NCBI GenBank assembly: GCA_025464585.1
Contig: JAODGL010000092.1
Coordinates: 1-46,927 of the forward strand
From: Methanosarcinales archaeon
Lineage (GTDB): Archaea > Halobacteriota > Syntropharchaeia > Alkanophagales > Methanospirareceae
Length of the DNA: 46,927 nt
Direction of reading: 5' to 3'
The number at the start of each line of letters is the position of its first letter. The first letter of the stretch is position 1. Positions 6,610 through 26,746 of the stretch are shown piece after piece. The notes under the pieces are model-generated. The model worked only from the letters and a program-made list of their open reading frames with translations. It was not told the DNA's origin and made no database searches. The position numbers were made by a program, and so were the translations under genes.

Positions 6610-9014
6610 TTTTCAGCAAAATTAGTGGTCCATTCCGGTCGAGCTGGTGGATTCGAACCCAACATCTCCCTCCACTTCTCATCGGTTAGCCTGTCATGCA
6701 TCGGCTGTTTAAATTCGTAATAACTCATTACGGGTCCAGCACCAATTAAAATCCTGCCATCTGGAACTTTGTAAGCGACAACAATCAAATCAACGTAGCC
6801 GACACCTTCTTCCAGAACCTGTCCTGTATTGCCGTCGGTATGAACGTCAGCAATTATTGTTGTCTTTTTTGCCTTTTCATCAACCTCTGCAATCACACCA
6901 TTTAATTCACCACCGAAGTTTTTAATGAACTCATAATCCTCTTCTATCAGCTCTTCATTCTCCAATTCCTTCTCCGACAGTTTAACCAATCTTTCCAGTA
7001 TTTTCTCCAGATTTTCCAATCTATTTCTCGCCGCGCTATCCAGAACGTTCATCTCGTCCAGGCCTCTGTTTGTCATGTTTGTTAAAGCCAGCAACCTGTT
7101 ATAAAACTCTGGAACTGGTTCGATGTAGCCAACGACTGGGTTTTTCGGCGATGGGGGTTTGTAGCTCGTTATTCCCATAGTATAACTCTGCTTCGCATAC
7201 AAAATCGTGTCATGCCTTAATTCAGTCCATGAAGATAGTGCGGTGGTTAATTTTTTGTCCTGCCACGCTTTGGTCTGCATAAATGTCGGATAGCCAGCAC
7301 CATATTCTTTTAGAAGAGGTTTCAAAGTGTGAAGCCATGACCAGTAAAGGTTCTTTTGCCAATCTGCCTCGTCAAACCCATCAAATTCCTGTTTTAATTC
7401 GTTAAACGCGGTTTCGTAGGTTATTTTTTCCCCTTTCTTATCTCTACCTTCGTATTCTGTATCACCCAATTCCCTTAAAAGTTCCCCTGCCCTCTCAGAA
7501 CCCAGCAAAGCCATTACATCCAATCCCCGGGGAAAGCATCTGGCTGGACCGCCATCTGTCAATTCGCAGGTGAAAACCTGCTCGCAATTTTTCCCGGAGT
7601 ACATCCCAACGTGAGGCGAAACTAAATTGGAAAACATGTAAGAATCAGGAATGAATCTCTGTCCCATCAATCTAAATCCTTTTGTAATTCCCAAAACCTC
7701 ATCTGCCTGTTCCGGTGTAAAAGGGGGACCCCAAAGCAAAACCTCCCCCGTACCACCATATATTTCTGGACTTCGGTATTCAGCCAATTTCGCCTTTAAT
7801 TTCCCGATATTCTCTTCTGTTAAATCTTTTGGCTCGAATTTGCCATTAAACACATAATCCAACGCATCCATGTATTCATAAGGTCCTAAATCGTCAGAGA
7901 GACCCACATAGAAAGCCGTTACTGTGTAGATTCTATCCCATTTCTCCCTCAGTTCCGGACTTTCTGCAAATTCAGAAGCTATTAAACTCGCACCTATTGT
8001 TTGTATCTTTGCATCGTGTAAAGAGATGAGGGCTTTGCACGGTGGGAAGTCATTACAGCTCTCTCCTGCTTCGACCTGGTCTGTTCCTTTAAGAAGCATG
8101 CTCATTCTCCCATACCACATAAATGCCCTGAAATAATTCTTTAACTTCTCAGACCGTGTGTAATGCCCGCGAGGAACATATTGGGTGTAATCTTCTCTGT
8201 AAACGAAGATGGGCGATTCAGAAAAACCTTCGTGGTTTTCTATCAGTTCCAATTCCTCTTCGACATCTGATTTAACAAAGTCTGGCATCATGAAGCTATA
8301 TTTTTCTAAGTCTTCCTTTTTGAAATAAGCATCTGTGCATTCGTATTCATATTTACTTTGACAGACCTGCTCTGATTTTGGCTGAAGCAAACGTAAACCA
8401 ACTGCGAAATACGCAACGTTTCTTCTCGATGCTTCTCTTAAATCACCACTGGCATGGTTATAACTCTCTACCGAATCGTTCAGTAACTCCATACTGATTT
8501 CCCAGAGCGCATCGTAAAATTCTCTCTCCTCAATTTGCCTCAGCGTTTCGTCAAATTGGATATGGTAAAGATGTAATAACGAATCAGAAGTGATAAAGAT
8601 GGGTATTTCCCTCTCTTTTAAGGTATTATAAGGCTGCGTGATATATTCTTCTTCCGGATTAAACGGATTACGGATAACTACAAAACCGTTCTTTTCCAGA
8701 AGTTGTATGGCACCCTCGCTTAAAGAGATTTTCGCGGAGAAATCGTCAAAATTGGATATTTTGCGGGTTTGTAAGGGAAGGTTATATTGCGAAACTTGTA
8801 AATCTATGTCTAAAGGGGTTAGGGAATAATATCCTATGAAACTCGTTTTTTCTGGTTGAACTCCGGATAAATCAATTGGTTCTGTTTTCAACTCGGAGTG
8901 TTCTACTTCAGGTGGTGTTTGTGTTGGTTGCTGAATGCATCCACTGAGAAAAATTATTCCCACAACTGCCGATACCAAAATCATCATTCCGTAAATTAAA
9001 GGTTTTGATTTCAT
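6606..9014 (-). CDS. Large secreted lipoprotein of unknown function, possibly DUF3160 family
   Basis: 802 aa. N-terminal signal/TM followed by lipobox-like LSGC (MKSKPLIYGMMILVSAVVGIIFLSGC). No catalytic motif recognised. PRGHYTRSEKLKNYFRAFMWYGR and the overall length recall DUF3160 from memory only. The stop overlaps the hypF start (ATGA). Confidence 0.7.
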   Translation of the reverse strand: MKSKPLIYGMMILVSAVVGIIFLSGCIQQPTQTPPEVEHSELKTEPIDLSGVQPEKTSFIGYYSLTPLDIDLQVSQYNLPLQTRKISNFDDFSAKISLSEGAIQLLEKNGFVVIRNPFNPEEEYITQPYNTLKEREIPIFITSDSLLHLYHIQFDETLRQIEEREFYDALWEISMELLNDSVESYNHASGDLREASRRNVAYFAVGLRLLQPKSEQVCQSKYEYECTDAYFKKEDLEKYSFMMPDFVKSDVEEELELIENHEGFSESPIFVYREDYTQYVPRGHYTRSEKLKNYFRAFMWYGRMSMLLKGTDQVEAGESCNDFPPCKALISLHDAKIQTIGASLIASEFAESPELREKWDRIYTVTAFYVGLSDDLGPYEYMDALDYVFNGKFEPKDLTEENIGKLKAKLAEYRSPEIYGGTGEVLLWGPPFTPEQADEVLGITKGFRLMGQRFIPDSYMFSNLVSPHVGMYSGKNCEQVFTCELTDGGPARCFPRGLDVMALLGSERAGELLRELGDTEYEGRDKKGEKITYETAFNELKQEFDGFDEADWQKNLYWSWLHTLKPLLKEYGAGYPTFMQTKAWQDKKLTTALSSWTELRHDTILYAKQSYTMGITSYKPPSPKNPVVGYIEPVPEFYNRLLALTNMTNRGLDEMNVLDSAARNRLENLEKILERLVKLSEKELENEELIEEDYEFIKNFGGELNGVIAEVDEKAKKTTIIADVHTDGNTGQVLEEGVGYVDLIVVAYKVPDGRILIGAGPVMSYYEFKQPMHDRLTDEKWREMLGSNPPARPEWTTNFAEK

Positions 9015-11798: not shown

Positions 11799-13034
11799 AT
11801 GACGAAGAACACGATATACATCATTGACGTCACGAACAGGGATGGAGTGCAGACATCGAGATTGGGATTGGCGAAGTTAGAGAAGACGTTGCTGAACCTT
11901 TACCTGGATGAGGCAGGCATCTTCCAGAGTGAATTCGGTTTTCCGGTCACGAGACACGAAACGAACTATTTGAATGCTAATCTGGCGTTAGCCGAGATAG
12001 GAGCTCTGAAACGCATTCGCCTCAGCGGGTGGTTGAGAGCAATAAAGGGAGATGTAGAAGAAGCTTTTCGATTGGTGCCGAAACTGAAACACGTTAATTT
12101 GAGTATATCCACCTCCAAACAGATGATAGAGGGCAAATTCATGGGCAAATTCAACTGGGAGGACATAATAAAAGAGATGTGTGAGGCGGTTGATGCAGCG
12201 AGAGCATACGGAGCAGAGACTATTGGTGTCAATGCAGAAGATGCTTCGAGAACAGAACTTGAACGGCTGATAGAATTTGCCAAAGCAGCAAAACAGCATG
12301 GAGCAGACCGGATAAGATACTGTGACACACTCGGTTATGACGACCCGTTCACCATCTATGAGCGAGTAAAAAAACTCGCGGAGGCGGTGTGTATTCCCAT
12401 CGAACTGCACTGCCATAATGATTTAGGGATGGCGGTTGCATGCTCAGTTGCAGGAGCAAAAGCAGCAATAGACGTAGGTGTTGACACGTACATCAACACT
12501 ACGATTAACGGAATGGGCGAGCGAGCCGGCAATGCAGACCTGGTCTCCACAATACTTGCGATAAAGAAAGCGAGTGGTTTTAAAGACAAATACCAATTAC
12601 AGGATATTGATTTAAGCCAGGCGTGGAAGATATGCAAATACGCTTCTCTCTCTTTTAGAGTCCCTATTCCAGTAAACCAGCCTGCGATCGGTGATAACGC
12701 CTTTGCGCATGAATCCGGAATACACGCTGACGGCACGTTGAAGGACAGCAGAAATTATGAACTGTATGATTATACCGAGGTCGGCAGGGGACATATCGAG
12801 CAGATTGAGACTGGCAGGCTGATAACAACGGGTGAATACTCGGGAATAAAAGGGTTCAAGAACGTGGCAGGAAAATATAAGCTGAAATTTCGCGATGATG
12901 CAGAAGCTCGTAAGATATTGGAACTCGTTAGGTATGCGAACGTACACACGCAGAAGCCAGTTACTGAGGACGAGATGAAGTTCATTGCAAAATATCCTGA
13001 ATATGCAAGGAGAATTATGTCGGTAGAACCATAA
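11799..13034 (+). CDS. HMGL-like / DRE-TIM acyl-CoA:2-oxoacid condensing enzyme (homocitrate / isopropylmalate / citramalate synthase family)
   Basis: 411 aa. N-terminal IIDVTNRDGVQTS (a variant of the canonical DTTLRDGEQ), HCHNDLGMAVA, INGMGERAGNADL, AFAHESGIHADG. Specificity cannot be read from the sequence. Confidence 0.75.
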   Translation: MTKNTIYIIDVTNRDGVQTSRLGLAKLEKTLLNLYLDEAGIFQSEFGFPVTRHETNYLNANLALAEIGALKRIRLSGWLRAIKGDVEEAFRLVPKLKHVNLSISTSKQMIEGKFMGKFNWEDIIKEMCEAVDAARAYGAETIGVNAEDASRTELERLIEFAKAAKQHGADRIRYCDTLGYDDPFTIYERVKKLAEAVCIPIELHCHNDLGMAVACSVAGAKAAIDVGVDTYINTTINGMGERAGNADLVSTILAIKKASGFKDKYQLQDIDLSQAWKICKYASLSFRVPIPVNQPAIGDNAFAHESGIHADGTLKDSRNYELYDYTEVGRGHIEQIETGRLITTGEYSGIKGFKNVAGKYKLKFRDDAEARKILELVRYANVHTQKPVTEDEMKFIAKYPEYARRIMSVEP

Positions 13035-13040
13035 ACGAAT

Positions 13041-14084
13041 ATGCCCAGGTACAACATCAACTGGAACATTACGCGCGAGTGTAATCTGCGCTGTAAACAC
13101 TGCTACTACGAAGCAGGCACGTCGTTAGAGGATGAGCTCAGCACAGATGAATCCCTTGCACTCATAGACGAAATAGCGAACGTATTTGGCGACAAAGCGA
13201 GCATCACATTTGGCGGTGGAGAAGCATTACTGAGAAAGGACTTATTTGACCTCCTTTCTTATGGTAAAGAGCGAGGTTTGCACCTCGTGCTCGCATCAAA
13301 CGGAACATTGCTCAACGAAGAAGTCGCTGCTCGTTTAAAAAACGTGGGTGTCGAAGATGTCATAATACCAATTGACGGCACTCAAAAGACACATGACGCA
13401 ATAAGAGGAGAAGGCGTCTTTGAGAAGGCGACCAAAAGCGCAAGAGCGGTTAGAAATGCGGGATTGAGCCTGGTGATTGACCCCTGTATAATGAAACAGA
13501 ACGAAGGAGAGATTGGGAAGATTATTGACATAGCTGAGAATCTGGGTGCGAGGCAGTGCAGGTTCTTTCATTACGTCTCGATGGGCAGGGGAAAGGAAGT
13601 AATGCCAGATAGTGAACTCGGCAGTGTCCAATACGCAGAAAACATGATGCAGCTATATGAAGAACAGAACAAAAGAAGAGCACTCGAAATCTGCACGACT
13701 CAGGCATGCCAGTACTGGGTGGTACTGAAAAGGAAAGAAGAAGAAGGGCTCTTCGTTCCCGATTTCTTTTATACCGAGACTCCCGGCTGTCGAGCTGCTA
13801 TCGGTATGCTTTCTATCAAGCCGAATGGCGATGTCGTGCCGTGTCCGCTGTTAGAAGTAAAAGCAGGAAATGTCCGTGAGATGAGTCTTCGTGAGTTACT
13901 GAACTCGAAAGTCTTTCTTGAACTGAGAAATCGTGAGGTGAAGGGCAAGTGTGCAGAGTGCAAATATAAAGATATTTGTGGTGGATGCCGTGTAAGGGCA
14001 TATCTCCATTCCGGCGATTATATGGCAGAAGACCCTTTATGCAGCGAGTTCTTTTTTGAAAGAGCATTCTTGAATAGCGAATAG
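13041..14084 (+). CDS. Radical SAM enzyme with C-terminal SPASM domain (AhbD/NirJ-like)
   Basis: 347 aa. CNLRCKHC (CX3CX2C) at the N-terminus, GGEALL, C-terminal Cys cluster (GCRAA..VVPCP..CAECKYKDICGGCRVRA..DPLC). Starts 6 nt after the HMGL-like gene. Confidence 0.85.
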   Translation: MPRYNINWNITRECNLRCKHCYYEAGTSLEDELSTDESLALIDEIANVFGDKASITFGGGEALLRKDLFDLLSYGKERGLHLVLASNGTLLNEEVAARLKNVGVEDVIIPIDGTQKTHDAIRGEGVFEKATKSARAVRNAGLSLVIDPCIMKQNEGEIGKIIDIAENLGARQCRFFHYVSMGRGKEVMPDSELGSVQYAENMMQLYEEQNKRRALEICTTQACQYWVVLKRKEEEGLFVPDFFYTETPGCRAAIGMLSIKPNGDVVPCPLLEVKAGNVREMSLRELLNSKVFLELRNREVKGKCAECKYKDICGGCRVRAYLHSGDYMAEDPLCSEFFFERAFLNSE

Positions 14085-14090
14085 CGTAAC

Positions 14091-14105
14091 TTATATATTT
14101 AAATA
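14091..14105 (+). promoter_or_regulatory. TATA-box-like element (TTATATATTTAAATA) upstream of the three-gene tubulin-like module
   Basis: Lies about 60-70 nt upstream of the ATG at 14164. A purine-rich GAGAGAGAGG Shine-Dalgarno-like stretch sits at 14146-14155. Confidence 0.3.
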
Positions 14106-14163
14106 CTCCGAAATTTAATAACTCATAGAAATAAATATTTTAAAAGAGAGAGAGGTATCAGAT

Positions 14164-14604
14164 ATGGAACCCTCGAGCATAGGGATATTGATTATTGCTA
14201 TATTGCTAATCATAGAAGTAGTGGTGATGCTGACAAAGTTAAAAGTGGACAAGATGCTTCTTCTTATGCCCGTCATCGGTGTAATATTCGCCGTTATCTC
14301 CTTTGCGTTGAATGAATACCGGGATAAGATTCTTTCCTCTTTATCTGATTCTGCTTCTTACGCCGTGATATATATTACAATAGCAGTAGGAGTTGTATTT
14401 GGATTATTTGGTGTCTCAGTGTGGTTCAAAGGAGAGAAAGAAGCAAGAAGGCTTGCTTCAGCGGCAAAAAGCATAGATAGCACGGTTGCGGGGATTGAAA
14501 GCGATATAAGAGGGAGCGGGATGGAATTAGAGCATTTTGATGATGAGATGAGCGGTATTAAAAAGAAGGTAGAAGATTACGAATCGAAAGAGAAGGGGGT
14601 ATAA
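14164..14604 (+). CDS. Small polytopic membrane protein (3 TM helices) with a charged helical C-terminal tail
   Basis: 146 aa. Hydrophobic segments at about residues 5-24, 31-49 and 65-87, followed by KGEKEARRLASAAKSIDSTVAGIESDIRGSGMELEHFDDEMSGIKKKVEDYESKEKGV. First gene of the module. No homology recognised. Confidence 0.6.
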   Translation: MEPSSIGILIIAILLIIEVVVMLTKLKVDKMLLLMPVIGVIFAVISFALNEYRDKILSSLSDSASYAVIYITIAVGVVFGLFGVSVWFKGEKEARRLASAAKSIDSTVAGIESDIRGSGMELEHFDDEMSGIKKKVEDYESKEKGV

Positions 14605-14654: not shown

Positions 14655-17357
14655 ATGGAAAAAGGAGAAGATACGGTAAATCGGATTGTAATTGGCATTG
14701 GGGGGCAGGGAAGTATTATTGTAAATAATATATTGCGAATGCTGAAGTTCAAAACAGGGAAAGTGCCGAAGAACGAGGAGTTCCTGATTATAGATACTGA
14801 CCAGGCATCTGCAAACGCATGCAGCGAAGTAGAAGAGAGAAAAAAGATAATTCTCAACAGACCGGATACGATTTTGATGCGGAACACCAATAGATGGCTT
14901 CCTGACCCTTATCTCTCGGCTGCCGGTGCTGGATGTGGACAACATCGAATATATGGCAGAGCGATGTACAATGTGCATCGAGAGAGGATATTCAGTGCGA
15001 TAGGTTCTTCGGCGTCAGAATTGAGAAACAGAACAGGAGGTAAGGACTTTTTCATTCTGATGGTGTGCGCATTCGGGGGGGGAACGGGGTCGAGTATGCT
15101 CCTCGATGTTGCCATTGACATACGCGATTGGATATCGAAACAGTTTGGGTCTGAGCCGGTGATGTTTGGAATTGGAATTCTACCCTCGAGCAAAGAATCC
15201 GTGCTTCCTACGGGTAATGCCCTCGGTGCGATGAAAGAACTTCATTTCCTTATGTCCCATACTGAAGACATCATAATAGATGACAAGAATTATTCTAATC
15301 CATTCAAATTATTCTTCCTTTTAGGCAGAGACCTTCAAGGGCAGAACCGGGATGAGGAACTGGAAAGGGCGATACCGAGGTTCCTTCTCGACCTCGGATT
15401 CCTGCCTGGTGGAACGGTAGAAACGAAAGGTAAGTGGCTCGACCTCAATGACCTTCAGAACAGAGCGAGGGGTTACGAAAACAGGTTTGATTCCCTTGGT
15501 TACTACGAGTGCGTTTTTCCTACTGAGAAATTGTTTTTGTACTATGATATTGAGGATGAGATACCGCGGGTAAGACAGCGATTGGTAGAGATAGAGGCAA
15601 AAATATCGGATATAAGGGGGAAAATAGACTCACAAAGGGGGGAATTGGAAAGGTTTGAGGGGAGGATAAAGGACGTTCAGCGAGAGATAGATAGTTACGA
15701 ATCGTCAGCAGGAATGTTTTCTCACGTGAATGCTGCTTTAACTGCGGATGCAAAGGCGAAACTGGATAGGGCGAGGAAGAAATTATCTGGCTTGAAGGAG
15801 GAGGTGTACGACCTTGAGATAAGGGCAAGCGACGCAGAGGAGGAGAAAAGACTGGCAGAGCGTAATTTAGAACGTCTTGAAGCGCTTAAGAACAAGCTCT
15901 TCCGGGAGATAACTTCGCCGCTGAACACCAGGAGTTATCACCAGATAGAACTATCAGAAGAGGAGATAAGAAGCTTGAAGCGAAGCAGAGAAGACCTGAA
16001 AAATCTTTCCTTCTTTGAGATTATGAAAAAACTCGACCGTGAAGAAGAGTACTTCCGGTGGACGCATTCACCGATTAATGAAGGCGACATCATATTCAAT
16101 CCGATGGTGAACTACCGTCATTCGATAGGGAATGCCATGGAGTCAAAATATATAGACATCCTTCATGATTACGGATTCCTGTCGCTGGATACACAGGGGA
16201 ACGTGGTGAACGAGGAGGAGAAGTTCGGGCACTTCATCGCGGTGTTGAGCACAAGGGCGGACAATTTTGATGACGCGAGGCTTGGCGGGGGGGCATTTAA
16301 GAGCATGGTGACAGAAAGATTTACAAAGGATGCAGACGTCCTGAAACTGGATACACCAGCACGTGCACACAGCTTTGCCATGTACACGCTTATGATTGGC
16401 GTTCAACCATGGGCGCCTGGTCCGGGTCTTCCGCCACGACTGCGTGAATTGGAATGGCTTGAGCGTGCGTATAATGCGAGCGATTTCTCTAAACTGCCGC
16501 GGCACCATTCCCTTTTCTACGGAACCCCAAAGCCATTCTCAATCATCACTGGGATACCATACATACCGGGTGCAGAGGAAAAAAACAGGGATATGGTAAC
16601 GAATTACTGGAAGGATTACGAGATAATTGAGCCTGAAGCAATATGGAACAATGTCCCCATCGTGCTTGCACAGTGTCTGAAGATGTTCGATGATTTACTA
16701 ACGGGTCTGGATATGGCAGAGGACATAAAAAATGTCCGAATCCCGGACCCGGATAGCTACTCAATAGCAAATCTTACAATGCTGGTTCACGGGCTTGAAA
16801 ACGCGAGTAAAAGCATGGCAAAGGTGACGCGATGGACCAGAGAGGCAGAGAGAGGATTTACGCTATTGAAAAACGAGCTTGATGAATTGATATTTAAATT
16901 AAAAGGGATGGAGGGGGTACCATCAAAAGATAAAGCAGCGAAAATGTTGAGGATGATAGATGACTCATCAAGAAATATGGAGATATTGCTTGACCGGATT
17001 GAAGACCTATCGAACAGGTTTGGTAATGATATAAAATCAGTCATAGAAAAAGCGATGGTTTTCTTAGGCAGAATACCTTCTGAAGAGACCACCTCAAGCG
17101 TGATAAGACATCTAACGAAGGCAGAATCAGAGATTTCGAAGCTAAGAGAAGACAGTATGAAGGCGGCAAAGGGGATAAAAGAGATGGGCGGACCACTCGC
17201 AGCGATGTTATCCTCGCTGAAAGAATTGAAAAAGATAACGGAATCAGGTGAATCAGAAGCTGAGGCAGAAGCTGGTGCGGAGAGGAAAGAGAAGATGAAG
17301 AATGTGGAGCTGCCTGATTTATCACTGAATATTGGAAGGGGAGAAGAAGGAGAATGA
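14655..17357 (+). CDS. Tubulin/FtsZ-superfamily GTPase domain protein with long coiled-coil C-terminal extension
   Basis: 900 aa. T1 loop VIGIGGQGS (residues 12-20), LIIDTD, GAGCGQHRIYGRA, tubulin signature AFGGGTGSS (residues 139-147, nt 15075-15095 for GGGTGSS), GIGILPSSKES..GNALGAMKEL, T7-like WLDLNDL (nt 15435-15455). Residues about 300-445 and 705-860 are heptad-like and E/K/R-rich. Confidence 0.85.
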   Translation: MEKGEDTVNRIVIGIGGQGSIIVNNILRMLKFKTGKVPKNEEFLIIDTDQASANACSEVEERKKIILNRPDTILMRNTNRWLPDPYLSAAGAGCGQHRIYGRAMYNVHRERIFSAIGSSASELRNRTGGKDFFILMVCAFGGGTGSSMLLDVAIDIRDWISKQFGSEPVMFGIGILPSSKESVLPTGNALGAMKELHFLMSHTEDIIIDDKNYSNPFKLFFLLGRDLQGQNRDEELERAIPRFLLDLGFLPGGTVETKGKWLDLNDLQNRARGYENRFDSLGYYECVFPTEKLFLYYDIEDEIPRVRQRLVEIEAKISDIRGKIDSQRGELERFEGRIKDVQREIDSYESSAGMFSHVNAALTADAKAKLDRARKKLSGLKEEVYDLEIRASDAEEEKRLAERNLERLEALKNKLFREITSPLNTRSYHQIELSEEEIRSLKRSREDLKNLSFFEIMKKLDREEEYFRWTHSPINEGDIIFNPMVNYRHSIGNAMESKYIDILHDYGFLSLDTQGNVVNEEEKFGHFIAVLSTRADNFDDARLGGGAFKSMVTERFTKDADVLKLDTPARAHSFAMYTLMIGVQPWAPGPGLPPRLRELEWLERAYNASDFSKLPRHHSLFYGTPKPFSIITGIPYIPGAEEKNRDMVTNYWKDYEIIEPEAIWNNVPIVLAQCLKMFDDLLTGLDMAEDIKNVRIPDPDSYSIANLTMLVHGLENASKSMAKVTRWTREAERGFTLLKNELDELIFKLKGMEGVPSKDKAAKMLRMIDDSSRNMEILLDRIEDLSNRFGNDIKSVIEKAMVFLGRIPSEETTSSVIRHLTKAESEISKLREDSMKAAKGIKEMGGPLAAMLSSLKELKKITESGESEAEAEAGAERKEKMKNVELPDLSLNIGRGEEGE

Positions 17358-18409
17358 GACGTTTATTTTATGCTTCACTTGTTGTTCTGGTACTCGCACT
17401 ATTAATTTTATCCGCAGGAATTGCATCAGCTCAGCAGGATGTGCTGAGGCTGAATGCAGACAAATCATATGTCATCAATTTAGATACCGGTGGTACTAAG
17501 ACATACTATATAGATTTTTTGAATACCGACCAATTTGAGGGCCATAAACTCGAATTCACCATTTATGTGAACAAGGTCGAGAAGGCATATATTCCGGATG
17601 AATATGTGTTGAAACTGGAGACAAACATGGAGAATCCGGAATGGAAGTTCGGTGATGAGATTCTCTCTGCGGCAGAGTGGATAGTGTGGAAGGGGAAGGA
17701 GGAGCATGAGTATGAGCGCATGACAATCTTAGTAACAGGGGAGGTCCCAAAGCCAATAATTCCGGTAGAAGAGCCGGGATTCGAGGCATACAAAGAAACA
17801 AAAGGAATTGGAAAGCGAGAAGTGTATGTCAAATTAACGGTGGGAACGACGAAGGATGGAGCGACATTAGAGAGGATTATACAGCCGTTGGAGCCTTCAA
17901 TGAAGTTCTTCTCGACGAGTGAAGGGATTCAGGATGCGAAGACCGAAATGGATAAAAATTTGGAAGAGGCAAGGGGTAAGATTGGTGGAACCGATTTGGA
18001 AGAGGATATACGCAAGCTCTATGAAGGAGGGCATCCGGGTTGGGCATCAAAGTTATCAGAACATTATAAGGAGCTATCTGTCGCGGCTGAGCCGCCTCCT
18101 ATCACTCTTTATGTCATCCTGTCGGTGATATTAGGTTTGATACTGGGTTCGGCATTCGTATATGTGTATGTATCAAGAGGAGGAGGAAAAGGAGTGGACG
18201 TGAGTCAGATTTCAGCGGAGTTGGATGAGACTTCGGGTCGAATAGAGGAGAAATCGAGTTCAATCAATGCAATATCAACGCGGTTTGCGAGGAGTGAGGA
18301 TGAAGAGAAGAGGGGTGTTGCAAGAGAGCTGATACGGATAAGGGCGAGTTTGAATGAGATTTCGAATGAGATAAGGACGATTGCAGATAGGATTAAGGGT
18401 TCACGGTAA
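17354..18409 (+). CDS. Bitopic membrane protein: signal peptide, ~220-aa extracellular domain, TM helix, cytoplasmic coiled-coil tail
   Basis: 351 aa. MRRLFYASLVVLVLALLILSAGIASA|QQ signal-like N-terminus. TM at residues 249-273 (nt 18098-18172). C-terminal SQISAELDETSGRIEEK...ARELIRIRASLNEISNEIRTIADRIKG. ATGA overlap with the stop of the 900-aa gene. Confidence 0.8.
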   Translation: MRRLFYASLVVLVLALLILSAGIASAQQDVLRLNADKSYVINLDTGGTKTYYIDFLNTDQFEGHKLEFTIYVNKVEKAYIPDEYVLKLETNMENPEWKFGDEILSAAEWIVWKGKEEHEYERMTILVTGEVPKPIIPVEEPGFEAYKETKGIGKREVYVKLTVGTTKDGATLERIIQPLEPSMKFFSTSEGIQDAKTEMDKNLEEARGKIGGTDLEEDIRKLYEGGHPGWASKLSEHYKELSVAAEPPPITLYVILSVILGLILGSAFVYVYVSRGGGKGVDVSQISAELDETSGRIEEKSSSINAISTRFARSEDEEKRGVARELIRIRASLNEISNEIRTIADRIKGSR

Positions 18410-18632: not shown

Positions 18633-19091
18633 TCACATAAATTTAAGCTCTATACCTGCCCTCTTCAAATATTCCAACCCTTCCTTATCGCTGTAATCCC
18701 CGGACATCACCACTCTTTTTATCCCTGCATTTATTATCAGCTTTGCGCATATCTTGCAAGGGTATGCGTTCACGTACAGCGTAGCACCTTCAGCATCTCT
18801 ACCCGCCTGTAACAGTGCATTTTGCTCTGCGTGGACACCCACACACTCCTCATGCCTTTCTCCTGATGCGATATTCAATTTATCTCGCCGACATCCAACG
18901 TCAAGGCAATGAGGGAATCCTCTCGGTGCACCGTTATATCCGGTTGATATTATCACCTTATTTTTAACCACCAGGGCACCTATTTGCCTTCTCAGGCATG
19001 TTGAACGTTCCGCCACGTCGCGTACTATATTCATCCAGTATTCGTCCCAGGGTATTCTCTTCGTTTTCTCCTTCTCTTCGCTTGGGTTCAT
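18633..19091 (-). CDS. Deoxycytidylate (dCMP) deaminase, ComEB-type
   Basis: 152 aa. Zinc motifs HAEQNA and PCKICAKLIINAGIKRV. N-terminal WDEYWM typical of dCMP deaminases. Confidence 0.9.
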   Translation of the reverse strand: MNPSEEKEKTKRIPWDEYWMNIVRDVAERSTCLRRQIGALVVKNKVIISTGYNGAPRGFPHCLDVGCRRDKLNIASGERHEECVGVHAEQNALLQAGRDAEGATLYVNAYPCKICAKLIINAGIKRVVMSGDYSDKEGLEYLKRAGIELKFM

Positions 19092-19144
19092 TTACGCGTT
19101 TCCAATGTAATAAAAAGTTTTATGATTATGAATGACTTGATATC

Positions 19145-19720
19145 ATGTCACGAGAAGAAGAGATGGAAAAACTGGAAGAAGAGATAAAAGAATGTCGGCG
19201 TTGCGAATTATGGCAAACGAGGACCAATCCTGTTGCTGGCGAAGGCTCGTTATCCGCGAAAGTAATGTTCATAGGCGAAGCCCCGGGTTACTACGAAGAT
19301 TTAAAAGGCAGACCATTTGTGGGTAAAGCGGGAAAGATACTTGATGAATTGTTGTGGTCAGTAGGGTTAGAGAGAAGTGAGGTTTATATAGCCAATGTGC
19401 TAAAATGCCGACCACCGGGGAATAGAAATCCAACAACCACAGAGATAAAAGCATGTACTCCTTACCTGGATGCACAAATAGAAATCATTGAACCCGGAGT
19501 TATCGCTACACTTGGGAACTTTTCGTTGGGTTATATCTTCGATAAATTCTGTATAAAGAAGGATAAAATAAGTAGAATACATGGTAAAGTCTTTAAGGTA
19601 GGCACGATTGTGGGTATTAAAAATGTGGTCGCTTTGTATCATCCGGCAGTTGCCACCTACAATCCGGGGATGAAAGAGGTATTGGTTAAGGATTTTAAGG
19701 CGCTGGCGAATTGCTTTTAA
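19145..19720 (+). CDS. udg: Uracil-DNA glycosylase, family 4 (Fe-S type)
   Basis: 191 aa. CRRCEL..., GEAPGYYED motif A, CRPPGNR, C..YL, LYHPA motif B. Confidence 0.9.
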   Translation: MSREEEMEKLEEEIKECRRCELWQTRTNPVAGEGSLSAKVMFIGEAPGYYEDLKGRPFVGKAGKILDELLWSVGLERSEVYIANVLKCRPPGNRNPTTTEIKACTPYLDAQIEIIEPGVIATLGNFSLGYIFDKFCIKKDKISRIHGKVFKVGTIVGIKNVVALYHPAVATYNPGMKEVLVKDFKALANCF

Positions 19721-22542: not shown

Positions 22543-25260
22543 TCACACCGCAAAATCCAACTGAGCATACACCTGTCGGTCCTTAAAGCACCGCAACGAC
22601 ATCGCACCCGAAGGGCAATAAGAAGCGCAGCTTCCACAACCTATGCAGCCATCACCGACCTTCGCAACCTTCTTCGTCCCCCCTACCACCGTCGCCACAC
22701 CGAAAGTAACCACCGGGACCGGTTCCTCCGTCAGCTCTATCGCCTCAACCGGACACATATCCACACACACGCCGCACCCTGAACATATTAGCTCATCCAC
22801 CACTGAAGTCACCGCAGGTGTTTCGAGGAAATCCTTCGCCAGCAGCACGCACGCCCTCGACGCCGCTGCACTGCTCATCGCTAAGCACTCGTCTATCATT
22901 GCGGGATAAACCGCAGAACCACAGATGAACACGCCCTCATTCACCGTGTCAACCGGTGTTAATACCATCTTCGGGCGCTCCTGCTCCTCCATAAAGAATC
23001 CATTTTTCAAAGGAATCATAAACATCCTGCTCAGTCGCTCGTTCTCCTCCGCAGGCATTGTCGGTGTGCTGAGCACCACCAAATCCGGCTTTATCTGTAT
23101 CTCATCGTTGAATATCACGTCATAGACCGAAACAATCCCGGCTTCGTATTTCGGCGGCTTATCCTTATCGTATCTGAGGAATATCACGCCTTTTTCCCTC
23201 GCTTCTTTATACAGCACTTCCCACTTTCCGTATGTTTTTATGTCCTGATACAGCACGAATACATTCGCATCCTGGTTCTTCTCTTTCGCTCTTAACGCAC
23301 CATCCACCACTTCAATCCCGCTGTACTTTGCATCTACCCCTTCCCCGGGTACATCTTGAATCAGCACGATTGTATTGGCATCCACTTTACCTGTTAGCAT
23401 GCGTCCAAATTCGCTCACCGTTACCACGTTCTTCTCTTTTCCATATCCATAGTATCCTTCATCAGGCACGAATTCCCTTGCTCCCGTTGCGATTACACAG
23501 GCGCCAAATTCTATCTCTTCATCCACTCCTTCTCCGGTTATCCTCGCTTTGAATGACCCCGCCCTTCCACGAATATCCTCTTCCTTTGCATTCGTGTACA
23601 CTTTTATTCGCTCGTTACTCGTTACTTTCTCAACAAACTCATTCAAAACGTCTGCCGCCTGCTCTCCACTTTGTAACTCCGGGATTGCTCTCAAACCACC
23701 GCCCAGCTCAGGTTCTTTCTCCACTAAATATACTTCATACCCCGCATCTGCAATCCCAAGCGCAGCATTCATCCCGGATACACCGCCGCCGATGACCAGT
23801 GCCTTCGGTATCACCGGATATCTCTCAACAGATATCTCTTCGAGATACTTCGCGCGTTCTACCGCCATTCTTAGCATATCCACCGCGGCTTCTGTTGCTC
23901 TTTTCGGCTCGTTCACCCACGCACATTGTTCGCGCAGATTCACGAACTCAAGTAAATAAGGGTTTAAACCTGCCCTCGCGCATGCATCCCTGACCATATC
24001 TTCATACTCTCGCGGTGAACATCCTGCAAATACTATCCTGTTCAAACCCTGGTCCACTATTCCACTTTCCAGCGCTTCCACCGCCTCTTTCATCGTGTTC
24101 GTCTCGCTGTTCACAAAAACGACTTCTTTCAGTTCTTTCACTTGCTCCGCAACCGCAGGTATATCCATCGCTTTCGATACTTCGCCATCACAGCCACAGA
24201 TAAAAATGCCTATCTTTGGCTCTTCACCCACTTCAATAAATTTATACTCCGCCTGCCCGGGAATTGGTTCCGTGCGCTGTGAAAGCCCAGCAGCCTTTAA
24301 TGCTGCACCACTCGCCTGTGCAACGCTCTCCCTTACCTTCATCGGTGCCGTTGCCGTTCCAGAAGCGAAAATCCCCGGAACACTCGTTTCCAGTGGGTTC
24401 GTGATGCTCGTCTCGATATATCCATATTTATCGGTTTTCACGCCCGTTATCTCTGCAAGCTTGCTTAACGTTTTCGATGGCAGCAAACCCATTGCGAGAA
24501 CCACCATATCAAGGTCTAATTGTTCTATCGTGCCTTTCTCAAGGTTCTCATACTTAACCGTCAGGGCTCCTTCTTCCGGAATCACCTCTGGAACTCGTGA
24601 CCTTATATATTTTACACCGTATTTGTCCTTTAACTCCGCCACCAATTCTTCATCTTTCCCAAATACCCTTATATCCATGTAGAAGATGTAAACCTCCGTG
24701 TCAGGGAATCTCTCTTTCACTACCCACGCCTCTTTCGCCGTGTAAGCACAGCACGCCGTAGAGCATATCTCGTTCTCCTGGCATCTTGACCCAACGCACT
24801 GGATGAATCCAATCCTTTTCACTCGCTTTCCATCCGATGGTCTTAGCAGTTCCCCTGTCTCACTCGCAGTAGCAGCCCTGAGAATGCCTTCAAAATCCAA
24901 AGAAGAAACGACATCCGGACTCCCAAATCCATAACTCTTCGCTACTTCGGGAATATCGTAACCTGGCGCTAACACCACGCTCTCCACTTCTACTTCCTTA
25001 CCCGAGGACACTTTCAGCTTGAAATTACCGGCTGAGCCTGATAAACCCTCTAACTCGCTTGACAGCATCAGTTCTATGTTTGGATGATTCTTCACCTTAA
25101 CCACGTATGGCGATAGCCCGGTCCTGCATTCTGCAAGCTCCGCCATCTTTCCTCCCAGCTCTGCGTTCTTCTCTATCAAATGTACTTTATAACCCGAATC
25201 TGCAAGGTCAAGAGCTGCTGTAATGCCTGCAACTCCTCCTCCAACAACTGCTATTCCCAT
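22543..25260 (-). CDS. hdrA: Heterodisulfide reductase subunit A, atypical tandem (two FAD/TrxR-like modules in one 905-aa chain)
   Basis: Module 1 (residues 1-325): VVGGGVAGITAALDLA, QCVGSRCQENEICSTACCAY, YMDIRVFGK, VAQASGAA. HdrA N-domain-like segment (345-475): KIGIFICGCDG, NRIVFAGCSP, NLREQCAWV. Module 2 (485-810): LVIGGGVSGMNAALGIA, but no CVGSR..CC cluster motif. C-terminal 2x[4Fe-4S] ferredoxin: CSGCGVCVDMCP, CIGCGSCASYCP. Confidence 0.9.
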   Translation of the reverse strand: MGIAVVGGGVAGITAALDLADSGYKVHLIEKNAELGGKMAELAECRTGLSPYVVKVKNHPNIELMLSSELEGLSGSAGNFKLKVSSGKEVEVESVVLAPGYDIPEVAKSYGFGSPDVVSSLDFEGILRAATASETGELLRPSDGKRVKRIGFIQCVGSRCQENEICSTACCAYTAKEAWVVKERFPDTEVYIFYMDIRVFGKDEELVAELKDKYGVKYIRSRVPEVIPEEGALTVKYENLEKGTIEQLDLDMVVLAMGLLPSKTLSKLAEITGVKTDKYGYIETSITNPLETSVPGIFASGTATAPMKVRESVAQASGAALKAAGLSQRTEPIPGQAEYKFIEVGEEPKIGIFICGCDGEVSKAMDIPAVAEQVKELKEVVFVNSETNTMKEAVEALESGIVDQGLNRIVFAGCSPREYEDMVRDACARAGLNPYLLEFVNLREQCAWVNEPKRATEAAVDMLRMAVERAKYLEEISVERYPVIPKALVIGGGVSGMNAALGIADAGYEVYLVEKEPELGGGLRAIPELQSGEQAADVLNEFVEKVTSNERIKVYTNAKEEDIRGRAGSFKARITGEGVDEEIEFGACVIATGAREFVPDEGYYGYGKEKNVVTVSEFGRMLTGKVDANTIVLIQDVPGEGVDAKYSGIEVVDGALRAKEKNQDANVFVLYQDIKTYGKWEVLYKEAREKGVIFLRYDKDKPPKYEAGIVSVYDVIFNDEIQIKPDLVVLSTPTMPAEENERLSRMFMIPLKNGFFMEEQERPKMVLTPVDTVNEGVFICGSAVYPAMIDECLAMSSAAASRACVLLAKDFLETPAVTSVVDELICSGCGVCVDMCPVEAIELTEEPVPVVTFGVATVVGGTKKVAKVGDGCIGCGSCASYCPSGAMSLRCFKDRQVYAQLDFAV

Positions 25261-25263
25261 TTC

Positions 25264-26139: not shown

Positions 26140-26728
26140 CTATTTTCTCAAATATCTTCTTCACTTCGTCAGTTCTCTTTATCTTCTCCGGGAACATTGC
26201 TTTCGGTCCCATCTTCCTCTTCTTAAACATCCGCATCCCGAAATCCTTGTAATCTTTCATCATTGCGCGCATACCCTTGATAAAAGACCCTTCCTTCTTC
26301 GGGTAATACTCCTTCGCCAGTCCTATATCATAGAGCCGCCCGTACTTTTCCAACTGATGCAGAAAAGCCTTATCAAAGAGTGGTCTGGGACTCTCTATCT
26401 TCAATTTGCCCGCTTCTTCTTCTTTCTCCGCTATCCGCCTTATCGCACTCAGCACATCGCTAACCACTACATCTTGCGGGCATCGAGCCGTGCACGTTTG
26501 ACAGATAAGACAAACCCACAGGTCCGGATTTGACAATACTTCCTCTCGCATGCCCAATAAACTCATCTGGATAATCTTCCTCGGATTGTAACTCGAAACG
26601 ATTTCCGTGATCGGGCATCCCAACGTACAGGTACTGCACTGGAAACATGCCGCAAGGTGCTCCCCTCCAGGCTCATTCATTATCTCGTTCCTGAAGTTCG
26701 GGTCCAACTCCCATGTTTTTATCGGCAT
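26132..26728 (-). CDS. hdrC: Heterodisulfide reductase subunit C (2x[4Fe-4S])
   Basis: 198 aa. CFQCSTCTLGCP and CLICQTCTARCP. 8-nt overlap with hdrB. Confidence 0.9.
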   Translation of the reverse strand: MPIKTWELDPNFRNEIMNEPGGEHLAACFQCSTCTLGCPITEIVSSYNPRKIIQMSLLGMREEVLSNPDLWVCLICQTCTARCPQDVVVSDVLSAIRRIAEKEEEAGKLKIESPRPLFDKAFLHQLEKYGRLYDIGLAKEYYPKKEGSFIKGMRAMMKDYKDFGMRMFKKRKMGPKAMFPEKIKRTDEVKKIFEKIGD

Positions 26729-26746
26729 TTTATTTTGTTCTTGTAC

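What the first reader, a model, noticed from the sequence alone, without database searches (positions are those of the whole stretch)
14655..17357. 900-aa protein with a genuine tubulin/FtsZ GTPase core fused to ~600 aa of coiled coil and unassigned domains
The first ~290 residues carry the full set of FtsZ/tubulin nucleotide-binding elements in the right order:
- T1 loop VIGIGGQGS (residues 12-20).
- LIIDTD (residues 44-49).
- GAGCGQHRIYGRA (residues 90-102, compare FtsZ GAGANPEVG).
- Signature AFGGGTGSS (residues 139-147; GGGTGSS = nt 15075-15095, last Gly replaced by Ser).
- GIGILPSSKES..GNALGAMKEL.
- T7-like WLDLNDL (residues 261-267, nt 15435-15455), which aligns position by position with FtsZ NVDFADV and keeps both Asp. 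This would allow polymerisation-activated GTP hydrolysis.

The protein is more than twice the size of FtsZ/CetZ/TubZ. About 30 residues after T7 it enters a heptad-like E/K/R-rich stretch (residues 300-445). A globular region follows (450-700), then a second helical region (705-860) and an acidic tail. Residues ~520-590 (HFIAVLSTRADNFDD...HSFAMYTLMIGVQPW) could be the displaced FtsZ C-terminal subdomain. In that case the first coiled coil would be an insertion. Divergent FtsZ-like families and the Pfam 'Tubulin_2' family exist in the literature, but none has, to my knowledge, a defined cellular role. I cannot place this protein in any of them from sequence alone.
Basis: partly seen in the sequence, partly recalled or inferred. 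Interest (0 to 1): 0.85.

Follow-up and report, generated by a model that had tools for sequence, protein, structure and literature searches.

The report
Archaeal FtsZ-like-1 (Tubulin_2) membrane-tethered GTPase
The 900-residue protein is a real but very divergent tubulin/FtsZ relative from a methane-oxidising archaeon (ANME-1); it belongs to the 'FtsZ-like 1 / Tubulin_2' family described in 2010, whose function is still untested, and it is encoded next to two membrane proteins that probably anchor it to the cell membrane.

Summary
The ORF (14655-17357, +) and all the listed motifs are real; two motif positions are off by one residue. The N-domain hits Pfam Tubulin_2 (PF13809) at 73.6 bits against a cut-off of 27. 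The canonical Tubulin model scores below its cut-off. This places the protein in the FtsZl1 family of Makarova & Koonin (2010), whose defining layout is an FtsZ-like N-domain, a coiled coil and a helical C-region. It is therefore a new member of a known, uncharacterised kind, not a new kind.

An AlphaFold2 model (pLDDT 84, pTM 0.73) matches CetZ, TubZ, FtsZ and tubulin in Foldseek (E down to 5e-9). Alignments about 590-630 columns long raise the target TM-score from about 0.50 to 0.61-0.71. The T7-like DxxD is kept in 41-42 of 47 diverse relatives.

The gene sits between a small 3-TM protein and a translationally coupled single-pass membrane protein, an arrangement conserved across archaeal phyla. 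In an Acidilobus homologue and related metagenomic sequences a 3-TM module is fused to the tubulin domain.

Most likely it is a membrane-tethered, polymerising GTPase. No experiment exists. Interest is moderate.

The parts
14164..14604 (+). Upstream gene: 146-aa membrane protein with about 3 hydrophobic helices and a charged helical C-terminal tail. It is the probable membrane anchor or partner.
   Evidence: ORF. Hydropathy segments at 1-29, 26-52 and 63-90, followed by a charged tail. Orthologues sit directly upstream in L004, L008 and L009. A small multi-TM protein, in most loci with a charged helical C-terminal tail, precedes the gene in every locus examined. The same 3-TM-plus-helix module is fused to the N-terminus of the tubulin domain in P0234, P0235, P0239, P0240, P0241 and P0252.
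14655..17357 (+). The 900-aa FtsZl1 / Tubulin_2 family protein (whole gene, including the stop codon).
14679..15392 (+). Nucleotide-binding (N-terminal) tubulin/FtsZ domain through the core helix, residues 9-246.
   Evidence: Pfam Tubulin_2 covers residues 11-238. The model shows alternating strands and helices: S1 9-15, H1 16-34, S2 41-47, H 98-127, S4 132-139, H 149-164, S5 169-176, H 183-200, S6 219-224, H 233-246. Foldseek matches CetZ, FtsZ and TubZ.
14688..14714 (+). T1 loop VIGIGGQGS (residues 12-20).
   Evidence: G14, G16 and G19 are kept in 46-47 of 47 family representatives. It aligns to FtsZ VIGVGGGGG.
15069..15095 (+). T4 signature AFGGGTGSS (residues 139-147).
   Evidence: GGTGS (residues 142-146) is kept in 46-47 of 47 representatives; G141 in 43 of 47. 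It aligns to FtsZ GMGGGTGTG.
15435..15455 (+). T7-like / start of H8: WLDLNDL (residues 261-267), carrying the acidic pair D263 and D266.
   Evidence: D263 is kept in 42 of 47 (plus 3 E) and D266 in 41 of 47 (plus 4 N) representatives. It lies at the end of loop 247-263 and the start of helix 264-271. A low-confidence hhalign alignment pairs it with FtsZ NVDFADV.
15486..15515 (+). Strand 278-287, probably S7, the first strand of the C-terminal (activation) subdomain.
   Evidence: Model secondary structure. It aligns with FtsZ GYAMMGSG, at low confidence.
15522..15914 (+). Antiparallel coiled-coil hairpin (helices 290-350 and 356-420), read as an insertion into the C-terminal subdomain.
   Evidence: pLDDT is mostly 83-96, falling to ~57 only at the hairpin turn (residues ~351-360). 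Heptad z-scores are 6.7 and 3.6. Only coiled-coil noise hits to SMC, Rad50 and JetC. Foldseek alignments skip about 300 residues here.
16224..16403 (+). Strand-helix-strand-strand unit (524-533, 545-555, 557-566, 573-583), probably S8-H10-S9-S10, completing the tubulin/FtsZ C-terminal subdomain.
   Evidence: Secondary structure from the model. The gain in Foldseek TMt with the ~590-630-column alignments. N537 kept in 46 of 47, S532 in 39, Y577 in 43 and G582 in 44. Sequence-only comparison is not significant (E = 0.37).
16446..17294 (+). Helical C-terminal region (residues 598-880), including five long helices 660-880. It is specific to this subfamily.
   Evidence: for the helices. Heptad periodicity. 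Y606 is kept in 47 of 47, H618 in 46 and W652 in 42. There is no Pfam or PDB match beyond coiled-coil noise.
17253..17354 (+). Disordered acidic tail (residues 867-900) ending in a short conserved motif, ELPDLS.
   Evidence: pLDDT is below 50 for 867-900. The motif is conserved in ANME-1 sequences and P0070 and absent in other lineages (alignment A1).
17354..18409 (+). Downstream gene: 351-aa single-pass membrane protein. It has a signal peptide, an extracellular beta-sandwich plus three helices, a TM helix at ~250-274 and a cytoplasmic helical hairpin at 283-349. Its start overlaps the stop codon of the tubulin-like gene by 4 nt.
   Evidence: for the ORF and sequence. Hydropathy. Model m34cc1cdeca84, pLDDT 69.6. 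No PDB fold match with E below 1e-3. A homologue sits directly downstream in L004, L001, L005, L006, L008 and L009. There are 125 homologues and no Pfam domain.

Best explanation
The gene encodes an archaeal member of the FtsZ-like 1 (FtsZl1, Pfam Tubulin_2) branch of the tubulin/FtsZ superfamily.

**Shown here.**
- It has an intact GTP-binding domain with the T1-T4 motifs.
- It has a conserved acidic pair at the position of the T7 catalytic loop.
- In the predicted structure it has a complete two-domain tubulin fold. The C-terminal (activation) subdomain is interrupted after its first strand by a ~130-residue coiled-coil hairpin and a ~100-residue insert.
- A ~280-residue helical region follows.

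**Inferred.**
- Subunits assemble head to tail like FtsZ, CetZ and TubZ.
- The T7 aspartates of one subunit complete the GTPase site of the next, so hydrolysis is coupled to polymerisation.
- The coiled-coil hairpin and the C-terminal helices project sideways from the filament. They bind the cytoplasmic helical tails of the two co-transcribed membrane proteins: the 3-TM protein upstream and the translationally coupled single-pass beta-sandwich protein downstream.
- The result would be a GTP-driven filament or lattice held at the inner face of the membrane and linked to an extracellular domain. It would serve membrane/envelope organisation or remodelling rather than chromosome or plasmid partition.
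For: **Family and fold.**
- Pfam Tubulin_2 scores 73.6 bits against a cut-off of 27.
- The AlphaFold2 model has pLDDT 84.2 and pTM 0.73.
- Foldseek top hits are CetZ1 4b46 (E = 4.9e-9, TMt 0.71), CetZ2, TubZ, FtsZ, BtubA and tubulin, plus viral FtsZ/tubulin.

**Complete fold with an insertion.** For the same target protein, long alignments raise TMt from ~0.50 to 0.61-0.66. The element order is S7, hairpin, S8-H10-S9-S10.

**Catalytic competence.** Across 47 representatives of the clade, GGTGS (residues 142-146) is kept in 46-47 (G141 in 43), R98, N188 and E195 in 47, D263 in 42 and D266 in 41.

**Membrane link.**
- The downstream membrane protein is homologous and adjacent in Syntrophoarchaeum, Altiarchaeales, two ANME-1 relatives and two further metagenomic loci. 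In the window and in several of these loci its start overlaps the stop codon of the tubulin-like gene by 4 nt.
- A small multi-TM protein, usually with a charged helical tail, precedes the gene in every locus.
- The same 3-TM-plus-helix module is fused to the N-terminus of the tubulin domain in six representatives, including Acidilobus saccharovorans ASAC_1500.
- In close relatives the cluster also holds four more proteins, three of them membrane proteins and one a second short tubulin.

**Agreement with the literature.** Makarova & Koonin predicted a membrane-associated complex for FtsZl1 (PMC2875224).
Against: - No experiment exists for any FtsZl1 protein in the literature I could search.
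- Polymerisation is inferred only from conservation of the T7-like pair and from the fold.
- The T7 loop is long (247-263) and partly low-confidence (pLDDT below 50 for residues 254-258).
- Beyond T4-H5, similarity to FtsZ is not detectable by sequence. Makarova & Koonin could not identify T6-H7 or a C-domain in the family.
- I could not view the superposition, so the C-subdomain assignment rests on Foldseek summary numbers and on the order of secondary-structure elements.
- Binding to the membrane partners is inferred from gene order and one type of fusion. No complex prediction was possible.
- A large insertion near the lower subunit face could block longitudinal contacts.
Confidence: 0.5

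Rival explanations
1. It is a non-filamentous GTPase switch. The protein forms a coiled-coil-mediated dimer or small oligomer at the membrane. GTP binding and hydrolysis toggle the conformation of the stalk and regulate the partner membrane proteins, without any cytoskeletal polymer.
For: - The FtsZl1 family was noted as possibly not forming filaments, or doing so by a novel mechanism (PMC2875224).
- A very large insertion lies inside the activation domain, and the T7 loop is long and poorly modelled.
- Several clade members replace D266 with N or T, or D263 with E or N.
Against: - The acidic pair sits at the T7/H8 position, where it acts in trans in all characterised tubulin/FtsZ proteins, and it is conserved.
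- The whole two-domain fold that builds longitudinal contacts appears to be retained.
Confidence: 0.22
2. It is a component of cell division proper. It would act as a membrane-anchored FtsZ paralogue or substitute in ANME-1 and its relatives.
For: - It belongs to the tubulin/FtsZ superfamily and has predicted membrane anchors.
- Its disordered C-terminal linker plus short conserved terminal motif resembles the FtsZ C-terminal tail.
Against: - No divisome genes (sepF, other cell-division genes) lie near it in the window or in the loci examined.
- FtsZl1 genes typically coexist with canonical FtsZ (PMC2875224).
- The clade occurs in Acidilobus, and Crenarchaeota use an ESCRT-III-based (Cdv) division mechanism (PMC2875224; that this applies to Acidilobus is my own inference).
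- The terminal motif is lineage-specific.
Confidence: 0.1
3. It is part of a conflict/defence system or a mobile-element system: an NTPase with a coiled coil plus membrane effectors that kill or arrest the cell on infection.
For: - In the wider FtsZl1 family, operons contain vWA proteins, protein kinases and extra GTPases.
- A vWA gene lies near the homologue in L005.
- The flanking genes differ between genomes (window, L008 and L009).
- The upstream small protein gives a marginal PADLOC '2TM effector' hit (E = 0.047).
Against: - There is no significant PADLOC hit. All hits to the main protein are coiled-coil noise against JetC or LmuB.
- The gene is present across ANME-1, at 74-100% identity in the ANME-1/Methanophagales-type sequences, and in sister lineages with conserved partners, which looks vertical.
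- The neighbouring genes in the window are housekeeping genes. No integrase or transposase was seen among the 29 ORFs scanned against Pfam (two of them, the 351-aa partner and a 146-aa ORF, had no hit above Pfam's cut-off; the remaining ORFs of the window were not scanned).
Confidence: 0.08
4. It is a TubZ-like DNA segregation motor for a chromosome or plasmid.
For: TubZ structures are among the good Foldseek matches (4ei7, 2xkb, 2xka; E of about 1e-7 to 1e-5).
Against: - No TubR-like DNA-binding gene or repeat centromere lies next to it.
- Both conserved neighbours are membrane proteins.
- The context is chromosomal, with housekeeping genes.
Confidence: 0.04

Closest known systems
FtsZ-like 1 (FtsZl1) family = Pfam Tubulin_2 (PF13809); Makarova & Koonin 2010, Biol Direct 5:33
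   Same: - The Pfam model hits above its cut-off.
- The layout is the same: an FtsZ-like N-domain with T1 and T4 motifs and family-specific inserts between them, then an extended coiled coil, then a mostly helical C-region (~900-1000 aa).
- Neighbouring genes encode membrane proteins.
- No function has been tested.
- An N-terminal TM variant exists, as noted for Sulfolobus SSO1376. It was seen here in Acidilobus ASAC_1500.
   Different: - This clade is a discrete subfamily. About 35-40 representatives at 50% identity match over the full length, whereas thousands of other Tubulin_2 proteins match only profile positions ~10-200.
- Its partners are two dedicated membrane proteins, not the vWA, GTPase, kinase or OmpA proteins typical of the family.
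- Here a T7-like DxxD and a split C-terminal subdomain are predicted, which the 2010 sequence analysis could not find.
CetZ (archaeal tubulin/FtsZ-like cell-shape proteins; PDB 4b46, 4b45, 3zid)
   Same: - Best structural match: E = 4.9e-9, TMt 0.71 over both domains.
- Both are archaeal.
- Some databases label the ANME-1 homologues 'CetZ'.
   Different: - Only ~10% identity.
- The Pfam Tubulin model scores below its cut-off (26.3 against 33).
- CetZ structures are ~330-395 residues long, with no coiled-coil insertion or long helical C-region.
- The 'CetZ' label is an annotation transfer, not a membership.
FtsZ
   Same: - The T1, T2 (DTD), T3 (GAGxG) and T4 (GGGTGS) motifs are colinear.
- A DxxD lies at the T7/H8 position.
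- A disordered C-terminal linker is followed by a short terminal motif in the ANME-1 forms.
- Membrane tethering through partner proteins is inferred here. For FtsZ it is established (FtsA, ZipA, SepF; general knowledge).
   Different: - The protein is 2.5 times larger.
- No FtsZ_C domain is found by sequence.
- The C-subdomain is interrupted by ~235 residues.
- The partners are unrelated.
- There is no division-gene context.
TubZ / PhuZ (plasmid and phage tubulins)
   Same: Both are divergent tubulin folds with extra C-terminal helices, and the Foldseek matches are significant.
   Different: There is no adaptor or centromere partner, the context is chromosomal, and the neighbours are membrane proteins.

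Membership tests
FtsZl1 / Pfam Tubulin_2 (PF13809) | The family profile matches above the curated cut-off. | tested here: met
   73.6 bits against 27, E = 2.4e-20, residues 11-238 on profile positions 1-282 of 356. Homologues carry a precomputed PF13809 hit.
FtsZl1 / Pfam Tubulin_2 (PF13809) | Architecture: N-terminal FtsZ-like domain, extended coiled coil, mostly alpha-helical C-terminal region (PMC2875224). | tested here: met
   The AlphaFold2 model gives an N-domain at 9-246, a helical hairpin at 290-420 and long helices at 598-880. Heptad periodicity is confirmed.
FtsZl1 / Pfam Tubulin_2 (PF13809) | Conserved T1 and T4 (GGGTG[ST]) GTP-binding loops, with family-specific inserts between T1 and T4. 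| tested here: met
   GIGGQG and GGGTGS are conserved. hhalign to FtsZ needs gaps between residues ~33-41 and ~70-90.
FtsZl1 / Pfam Tubulin_2 (PF13809) | Typical (not obligatory) operon partners: vWA protein, divergent P-loop GTPase, Ser/Thr kinase, OmpA-like protein. | tested here: not met
   The window neighbours are a 3-TM protein and a single-pass membrane protein with no Pfam domain. A vWA gene was seen only near the L005 homologue. Membrane-protein partners are also described for the family.
Canonical FtsZ | Pfam Tubulin (PF00091) and FtsZ_C domains, ~350-400 aa plus C-terminal peptide, division-gene context. | tested here: not met
   PF00091 scores 26.3 bits, below the 33 cut-off. There is no FtsZ_C hit. 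The protein is 900 aa, and no division genes lie nearby.
CetZ | Sequence membership of the archaeal CetZ clade; a compact two-domain protein of ~330-395 residues. | tested here: not met
   The match is structural only, at 10-12% identity. The profile against PDB gives E = 0.0014-0.0078 over ~50-70 residues around T4. No phylogeny was built.
Tubulin/FtsZ superfamily (fold level) | A two-domain fold: a Rossmann-like GTPase domain, a core helix, a T7 loop, and a C-terminal beta-sheet domain. | tested here: met
   The top 50 Foldseek PDB hits are all superfamily members, with TMt up to 0.71. The C-domain part is inferred from alignment length, the gain in TMt and the order of elements. It was not visually verified.
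Tubulin/FtsZ superfamily (function level) | GTP-dependent polymerisation with T7-activated hydrolysis. | not testable with these tools
   Only conservation of D263 and D266 bears on this.
TubZ-type segregation system | An adjacent TubR-like DNA-binding adaptor and centromeric repeats. | tested here: not met
   Both neighbours are membrane proteins without DNA-binding domains. I did not run a dedicated repeat search on the flanks.
SMC (label given by one database to a homologue) | The SMC profile matches at the equivalog cut-off; ABC-type head domains and a hinge are present. | tested here: not met
   TIGR02169 scores 19.8 bits against a cut-off of 729, over coiled-coil residues 300-447 only.

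The most novel reading that the evidence does not exclude
This archaeal FtsZl1 clade is a complete tubulin whose activation domain is split by a coiled-coil stalk. It would work together with its dedicated membrane partners. In close relatives these also include a second, degenerate short tubulin, a 2-TM helical protein and large Ig-like surface proteins. Together they would form a trans-envelope, GTP-driven cytoskeletal machine of a kind not yet described, coupling a cytoplasmic filament to extracellular domains, for example for envelope shaping or cell-cell contact in syntrophic consortia.
Probability: 0.3. Interest if true: 0.75.

Novelty: new member of a known kind. Interest (0 to 1): 0.45.

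Why it matters
**Why the family matters.** FtsZl1/Tubulin_2 is one of the largest branches of the tubulin superfamily with no known function. A profile of this clade finds 3,968 representatives at 50% identity with E ≤ 1e-3. An unknown share of the weakest may be coiled-coil matches.

**What this locus adds.**
- A testable structural reading: the fold is complete, the T7 aspartates are retained, and the coiled coil is an insertion. This revises the 2010 sequence-based view that the family lacks T7 and the C-domain.
- A concrete set of conserved membrane partners, supported by gene fusion, that points to how the protein is anchored.

**Limits.** ANME-1 is uncultured. The same clade occurs in Acidilobus, which has been isolated in culture, so that homologue is at least open to biochemical study.

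**If confirmed.** It would add a membrane-integrated tubulin system to the archaeal cytoskeleton repertoire.

Tried and rejected
- **PADLOC defence models.** Only coiled-coil noise.
- **Sequence searches against PDB.** The single sequence gave nothing, and the profile gave coiled-coil noise plus weak CetZ hits around T4.
- **hhalign of the family profile to E. coli FtsZ.** Only T1-T4 align with confidence.
- **hhalign with the insertion removed (residues 293-518 deleted).** The alignment extends colinearly through T7, S7 and the C-domain, but at low confidence.
- **C-subdomain alone (270-292 plus 519-600).** Not significant against FtsZ or the neighbouring canonical tubulins (E = 0.37-0.38). 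Sequence therefore cannot confirm the C-domain assignment.
- **Second word-indexed homologue search with the alignment.** It added only three distant N-domain matches.
- **Downstream membrane protein.** No Pfam, NCBIfam or PADLOC family. Its model gave no PDB fold match with E below 1e-3, only generic beta-sandwiches.
- **Split-paralogue idea.** I tested whether the short tubulin plus the ~420-aa protein in related loci is a split paralogue of the 900-aa protein. The ~420-aa proteins do not hit the family HMM.
- **Search of the window for those upstream cluster genes.** They are absent.
- **tRNA and Rfam scans of the window.** Nothing found.
- **Database labels 'CetZ' and 'Smc' for homologues.** Rejected.
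- **Archaeal promoter and terminator elements.** Not scanned with a tool. I only noted AT-rich TATA-like stretches at ~14090-14150 by eye.

Full report
**1. Observation**

The ORF at 14655-17357 (+) exists, starts with ATG and encodes 900 residues. Two are shifted by one residue: GAGCGQHRIYGRA is at 91-103 and HSFAMYTLMIGVQPW at 572-586.

The window is a chromosomal fragment of an ANME-1 (Methanophagales) archaeon. The protein is 100% identical to an NCBI metagenome protein. In the first search the full-length matches at 74-95% identity that carry a source name are mostly labelled Methanophagales/ANME-1 (a few are labelled more broadly), and most matches are unnamed. Further full-length homologues were found at these identities:
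- Syntrophoarchaeum, 66%
- Altiarchaeales, 35%
- Thermoplasmatota, 33%

This is a real, conserved gene.

**2. Family**

The N-terminal 240 residues match Pfam Tubulin_2 (PF13809) at 73.6 bits, against a cut-off of 27. They match the canonical Tubulin/FtsZ GTPase model at only 26.3 bits, below its cut-off of 33.

Tubulin_2 corresponds to the 'FtsZ-like 1' (FtsZl1) family defined by Makarova & Koonin in 2010. [quoted passage not shown] They found it in bacteria and archaea, in operons rich in membrane proteins, vWA proteins, kinases and GTPases. They predicted a role in membrane remodelling but tested nothing (PMC2875224).

A 2023 survey of the superfamily set these 'FtsZ-like (Tubulin_2)' proteins aside as divergent, with N- or C-terminal extensions (PMC9871819). 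I found no paper that characterises any member experimentally.

**3. Position within the family**

I searched a profile of 18 full-length homologues (alignment A1) against 1.84 billion representative proteins:

| E-value threshold | Hits |
|---|---|
| ≤ 1e-3 | 3,968 |
| ≤ 1e-10 | 726 |
| ≤ 1e-30 | 57 |

About 35-40 representatives of 845-1,055 aa match over the whole length. Nearly all the rest match only profile positions ~10-200, inside proteins of 700-1,200 aa. The window protein therefore belongs to a discrete archaeal subfamily of FtsZl1 with its own C-terminal two-thirds.

One member is ASAC_1500 of the crenarchaeon Acidilobus saccharovorans.

**4. Structure**

AlphaFold2 on alignment A1 gave a confident model, with mean pLDDT 84.2 and pTM 0.73. 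The order of elements is:
- an alternating strand/helix N-domain (9-224)
- a helix at 233-246
- a long loop at 247-263
- a short helix at 264-271
- a strand at 278-287
- two ~60-residue helices (290-350 and 356-420) forming a hairpin
- a small mixed region (428-520)
- strand 524-533, helix 545-555, strand 557-566, strand 573-583
- helices to residue 880
- a disordered acidic tail

Foldseek against the PDB returned only tubulin-superfamily proteins among its top 50 hits. CetZ1 (4b46) was best, at E = 4.9e-9 and a target-normalised TM-score of 0.71. CetZ2, TubZ, FtsZ, BtubA and tubulins followed. The viral library gave only phage FtsZ/tubulins.

The alignments fall into two classes. For S. aureus FtsZ (~305 residues), alignments of ~290 columns cover the N-domain only and give TMt of about 0.50. 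Alignments of ~590 columns give 0.61-0.66. The extra score must come from target residues matched after a gap of about 300 residues in the query, in the same rigid-body frame.

Residues ~524-583 complete the FtsZ C-terminal subdomain, and the first coiled coil is an insertion, roughly in place of helix H9.

I could not obtain coordinates or residue-level alignments, so this remains an inference from summary numbers. Sequence methods do not see the relationship. hhalign of the family profile to E. coli FtsZ is confident only for T1-T4. The isolated C-region scores E = 0.37. That agrees with the 2010 authors' failure to find T6-H7 or a C-domain.

**5. Catalytic elements**

I aligned 47 sequences: A1 plus 29 diverse representatives.

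| Residue or motif | Conserved in (of 47) |
|---|---|
| GGTGS (T4, residues 142-146; G141 43) | 46-47 |
| G14, G16, G19 (T1) | 46-47 |
| R98, N188, E195, Y606 | 47 |
| N537, H618 | 46 |
| D263 | 42 (3 more are E) |
| D266 | 41 (4 more are N) |

With the insertion deleted, a permissive hhalign run pairs WLDLNDL with FtsZ NVDFADV and SLGYYECV with the FtsZ S7 strand GYAMMGSG. The confidence is low, but the pairing is colinear with the model.

The heptad pattern of the long helices is significant against shuffles, with z between 3.0 and 6.7.

**6. Gene neighbourhood**

*In the window.* The gene is preceded at a 50-nt gap by a 146-aa protein with about three TM helices and a charged helical tail. 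It is followed by a 351-aa protein whose start overlaps its stop codon by 4 nt. The next gene downstream is on the other strand. Upstream of the 146-aa gene is an 80-nt AT-rich spacer. The three genes therefore look like one transcription unit, but this is inferred.

*The 351-aa protein.* It has a signal peptide, a beta-sandwich plus three-helix ectodomain, one TM helix and a ~70-residue cytoplasmic helical hairpin. It has no Pfam family and no significant fold match.

*Conservation of the partners.*
- A homologue of the 351-aa protein lies immediately downstream of the tubulin-like gene in Syntrophoarchaeum (L004), Altiarchaeales (L001), two further metagenomic lineages (L005, L006) and two ANME-1 relatives (L008, L009).
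- A small multi-TM protein, in most loci with a charged helical tail, precedes the gene in every locus.
- Six representatives, including Acidilobus ASAC_1500, carry a ~190-residue N-terminal extension of three TM helices plus a charged helix, fused to the tubulin domain. This is the same module, in the same order, as the separate upstream gene. Profile similarity between the two is weak (hhalign probability 78%; hmmsearch E of 5e-8 to 6e-6 in a database of 8 sequences). Makarova & Koonin noted N-terminal TM helices in Sulfolobus SSO1376, which is probably the same variant; that link is my inference.

*Wider cluster in relatives.* In the ANME-1 relatives and Syntrophoarchaeum the trio is part of a seven-gene cluster. 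The four additional genes encode:
- a large Ig-like surface protein with a C-terminal TM helix
- a 325-aa membrane protein
- a short (~300 aa) tubulin with a degenerate T4 loop
- a ~420-aa protein with two TM helices and a long helical region

These four are absent from the window. There, a homocitrate-synthase-like gene and an AhbD-like radical-SAM gene lie upstream.

**7. Mechanism**

Best supported, at about 0.5 confidence: a membrane-tethered, polymerising tubulin-family GTPase.
- Shown: family membership, intact nucleotide-binding motifs, a conserved T7-like acidic pair, a predicted complete fold with an inserted coiled coil, and conserved, sometimes fused, membrane partners.
- Inferred: head-to-tail assembly with trans-activation of GTP hydrolysis; sideways projection of the stalk; docking of the partners' cytoplasmic helices on the stalk or the C-terminal helices; and a role in membrane or envelope organisation.

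Rivals:
- A non-filamentous GTPase switch (0.22).
- A true division protein (0.10). There is no division-gene context, and the clade is present in a Cdv-type crenarchaeon.
- A conflict or defence system (0.08). There is no PADLOC support, and the distribution looks vertical.
- A TubZ-like segregation motor (0.04). There is no adaptor, and the neighbours are membrane proteins.

**8. Comparison and verdict**

The protein works most like FtsZ or CetZ held at the membrane by adaptor proteins. By every test I could run, it is a member of FtsZl1/Tubulin_2. It is not a member of FtsZ, CetZ, TubZ or SMC, and the last two database labels on homologues are annotation artefacts.

The claim of unusual architecture does not make it new, because the family and its layout were published in 2010, and NCBI already names homologues 'tubulin-like domain-containing protein'.

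This analysis adds:
- the subfamily definition
- the predicted split C-domain and retained T7
- the conserved membrane partners with fusion support

Novelty: new member of a known kind. Interest: moderate (0.45).

Noticed in passing
L008:3633-13746, L009:3818-13770, L004:2042-11611 (related loci); absent from the window: In two ANME-1 relatives and in Syntrophoarchaeum the three-gene unit is part of a conserved seven-gene cluster. The cluster also encodes a large Ig-like surface protein with a C-terminal TM helix, a ~325-aa membrane protein, a short (~300 aa) PF00091 tubulin with a degenerate T4 loop (GLGDSN), and a ~420-aa protein with 2 TM helices and a long helical region. The window genome has only the last three genes at this site. 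Canonical-length tubulin genes (400-490 aa) also lie within a few kb in L001, L005, L006 and L007.
   Followed up: partly
Proteins P0234, P0235, P0239, P0240 (Acidilobus saccharovorans ASAC_1500), P0241, P0252: Family members from Acidilobus and from metagenomes of unknown origin carry an N-terminal extension of ~190 residues, with three TM helices plus a charged helix, fused to the tubulin domain. It mirrors the separate upstream small membrane gene of the window. This is a likely gene fusion, indicating that the two proteins act together.
   Followed up: partly
window 17253-17354 (residues 867-900): The protein ends in a disordered acidic linker followed by a short motif (V/L-E-L-P-D/E-L-S). 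The motif is conserved in ANME-1 sequences and one other lineage but missing in Syntrophoarchaeum and the more distant homologues. It is reminiscent of the FtsZ C-terminal linker plus docking peptide.
   Followed up: no
window 22543-27811 (-): A run of redox genes: a 905-aa HdrA-like flavoprotein with two pyridine-nucleotide-disulphide oxidoreductase regions and ferredoxin domains, a CCG-domain (HdrB-like) protein, a 4Fe-4S protein, and an FrhB-like protein. This is typical of methanogen or ANME energy metabolism.
   Followed up: no
window 6606-9014 (-): An 802-aa protein matches DUF3160 over its full length (E = 5.9e-220), next to HypF (4348-6609). Its function is unknown.
   Followed up: no
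window 11799-14084 (+): A homocitrate/isopropylmalate-synthase-like gene and a radical-SAM/SPASM gene lie directly upstream of the unit. Both score well below the NCBIfam equivalog cut-offs (NifV 264 against 463; AhbD 279 against 500), so their exact functions are uncertain. Radical-SAM genes also lie near the homologue in L006.
   Followed up: no
window 18633-19720: A dCMP/ComEB-type deaminase (-) and a family-4 uracil-DNA glycosylase (+) are transcribed divergently just downstream of the unit. The flanks of the cluster differ in every genome examined.
   Followed up: no
window 1-46927: The whole window contains no tRNA genes and no Rfam family above its gathering score.
   Followed up: yes
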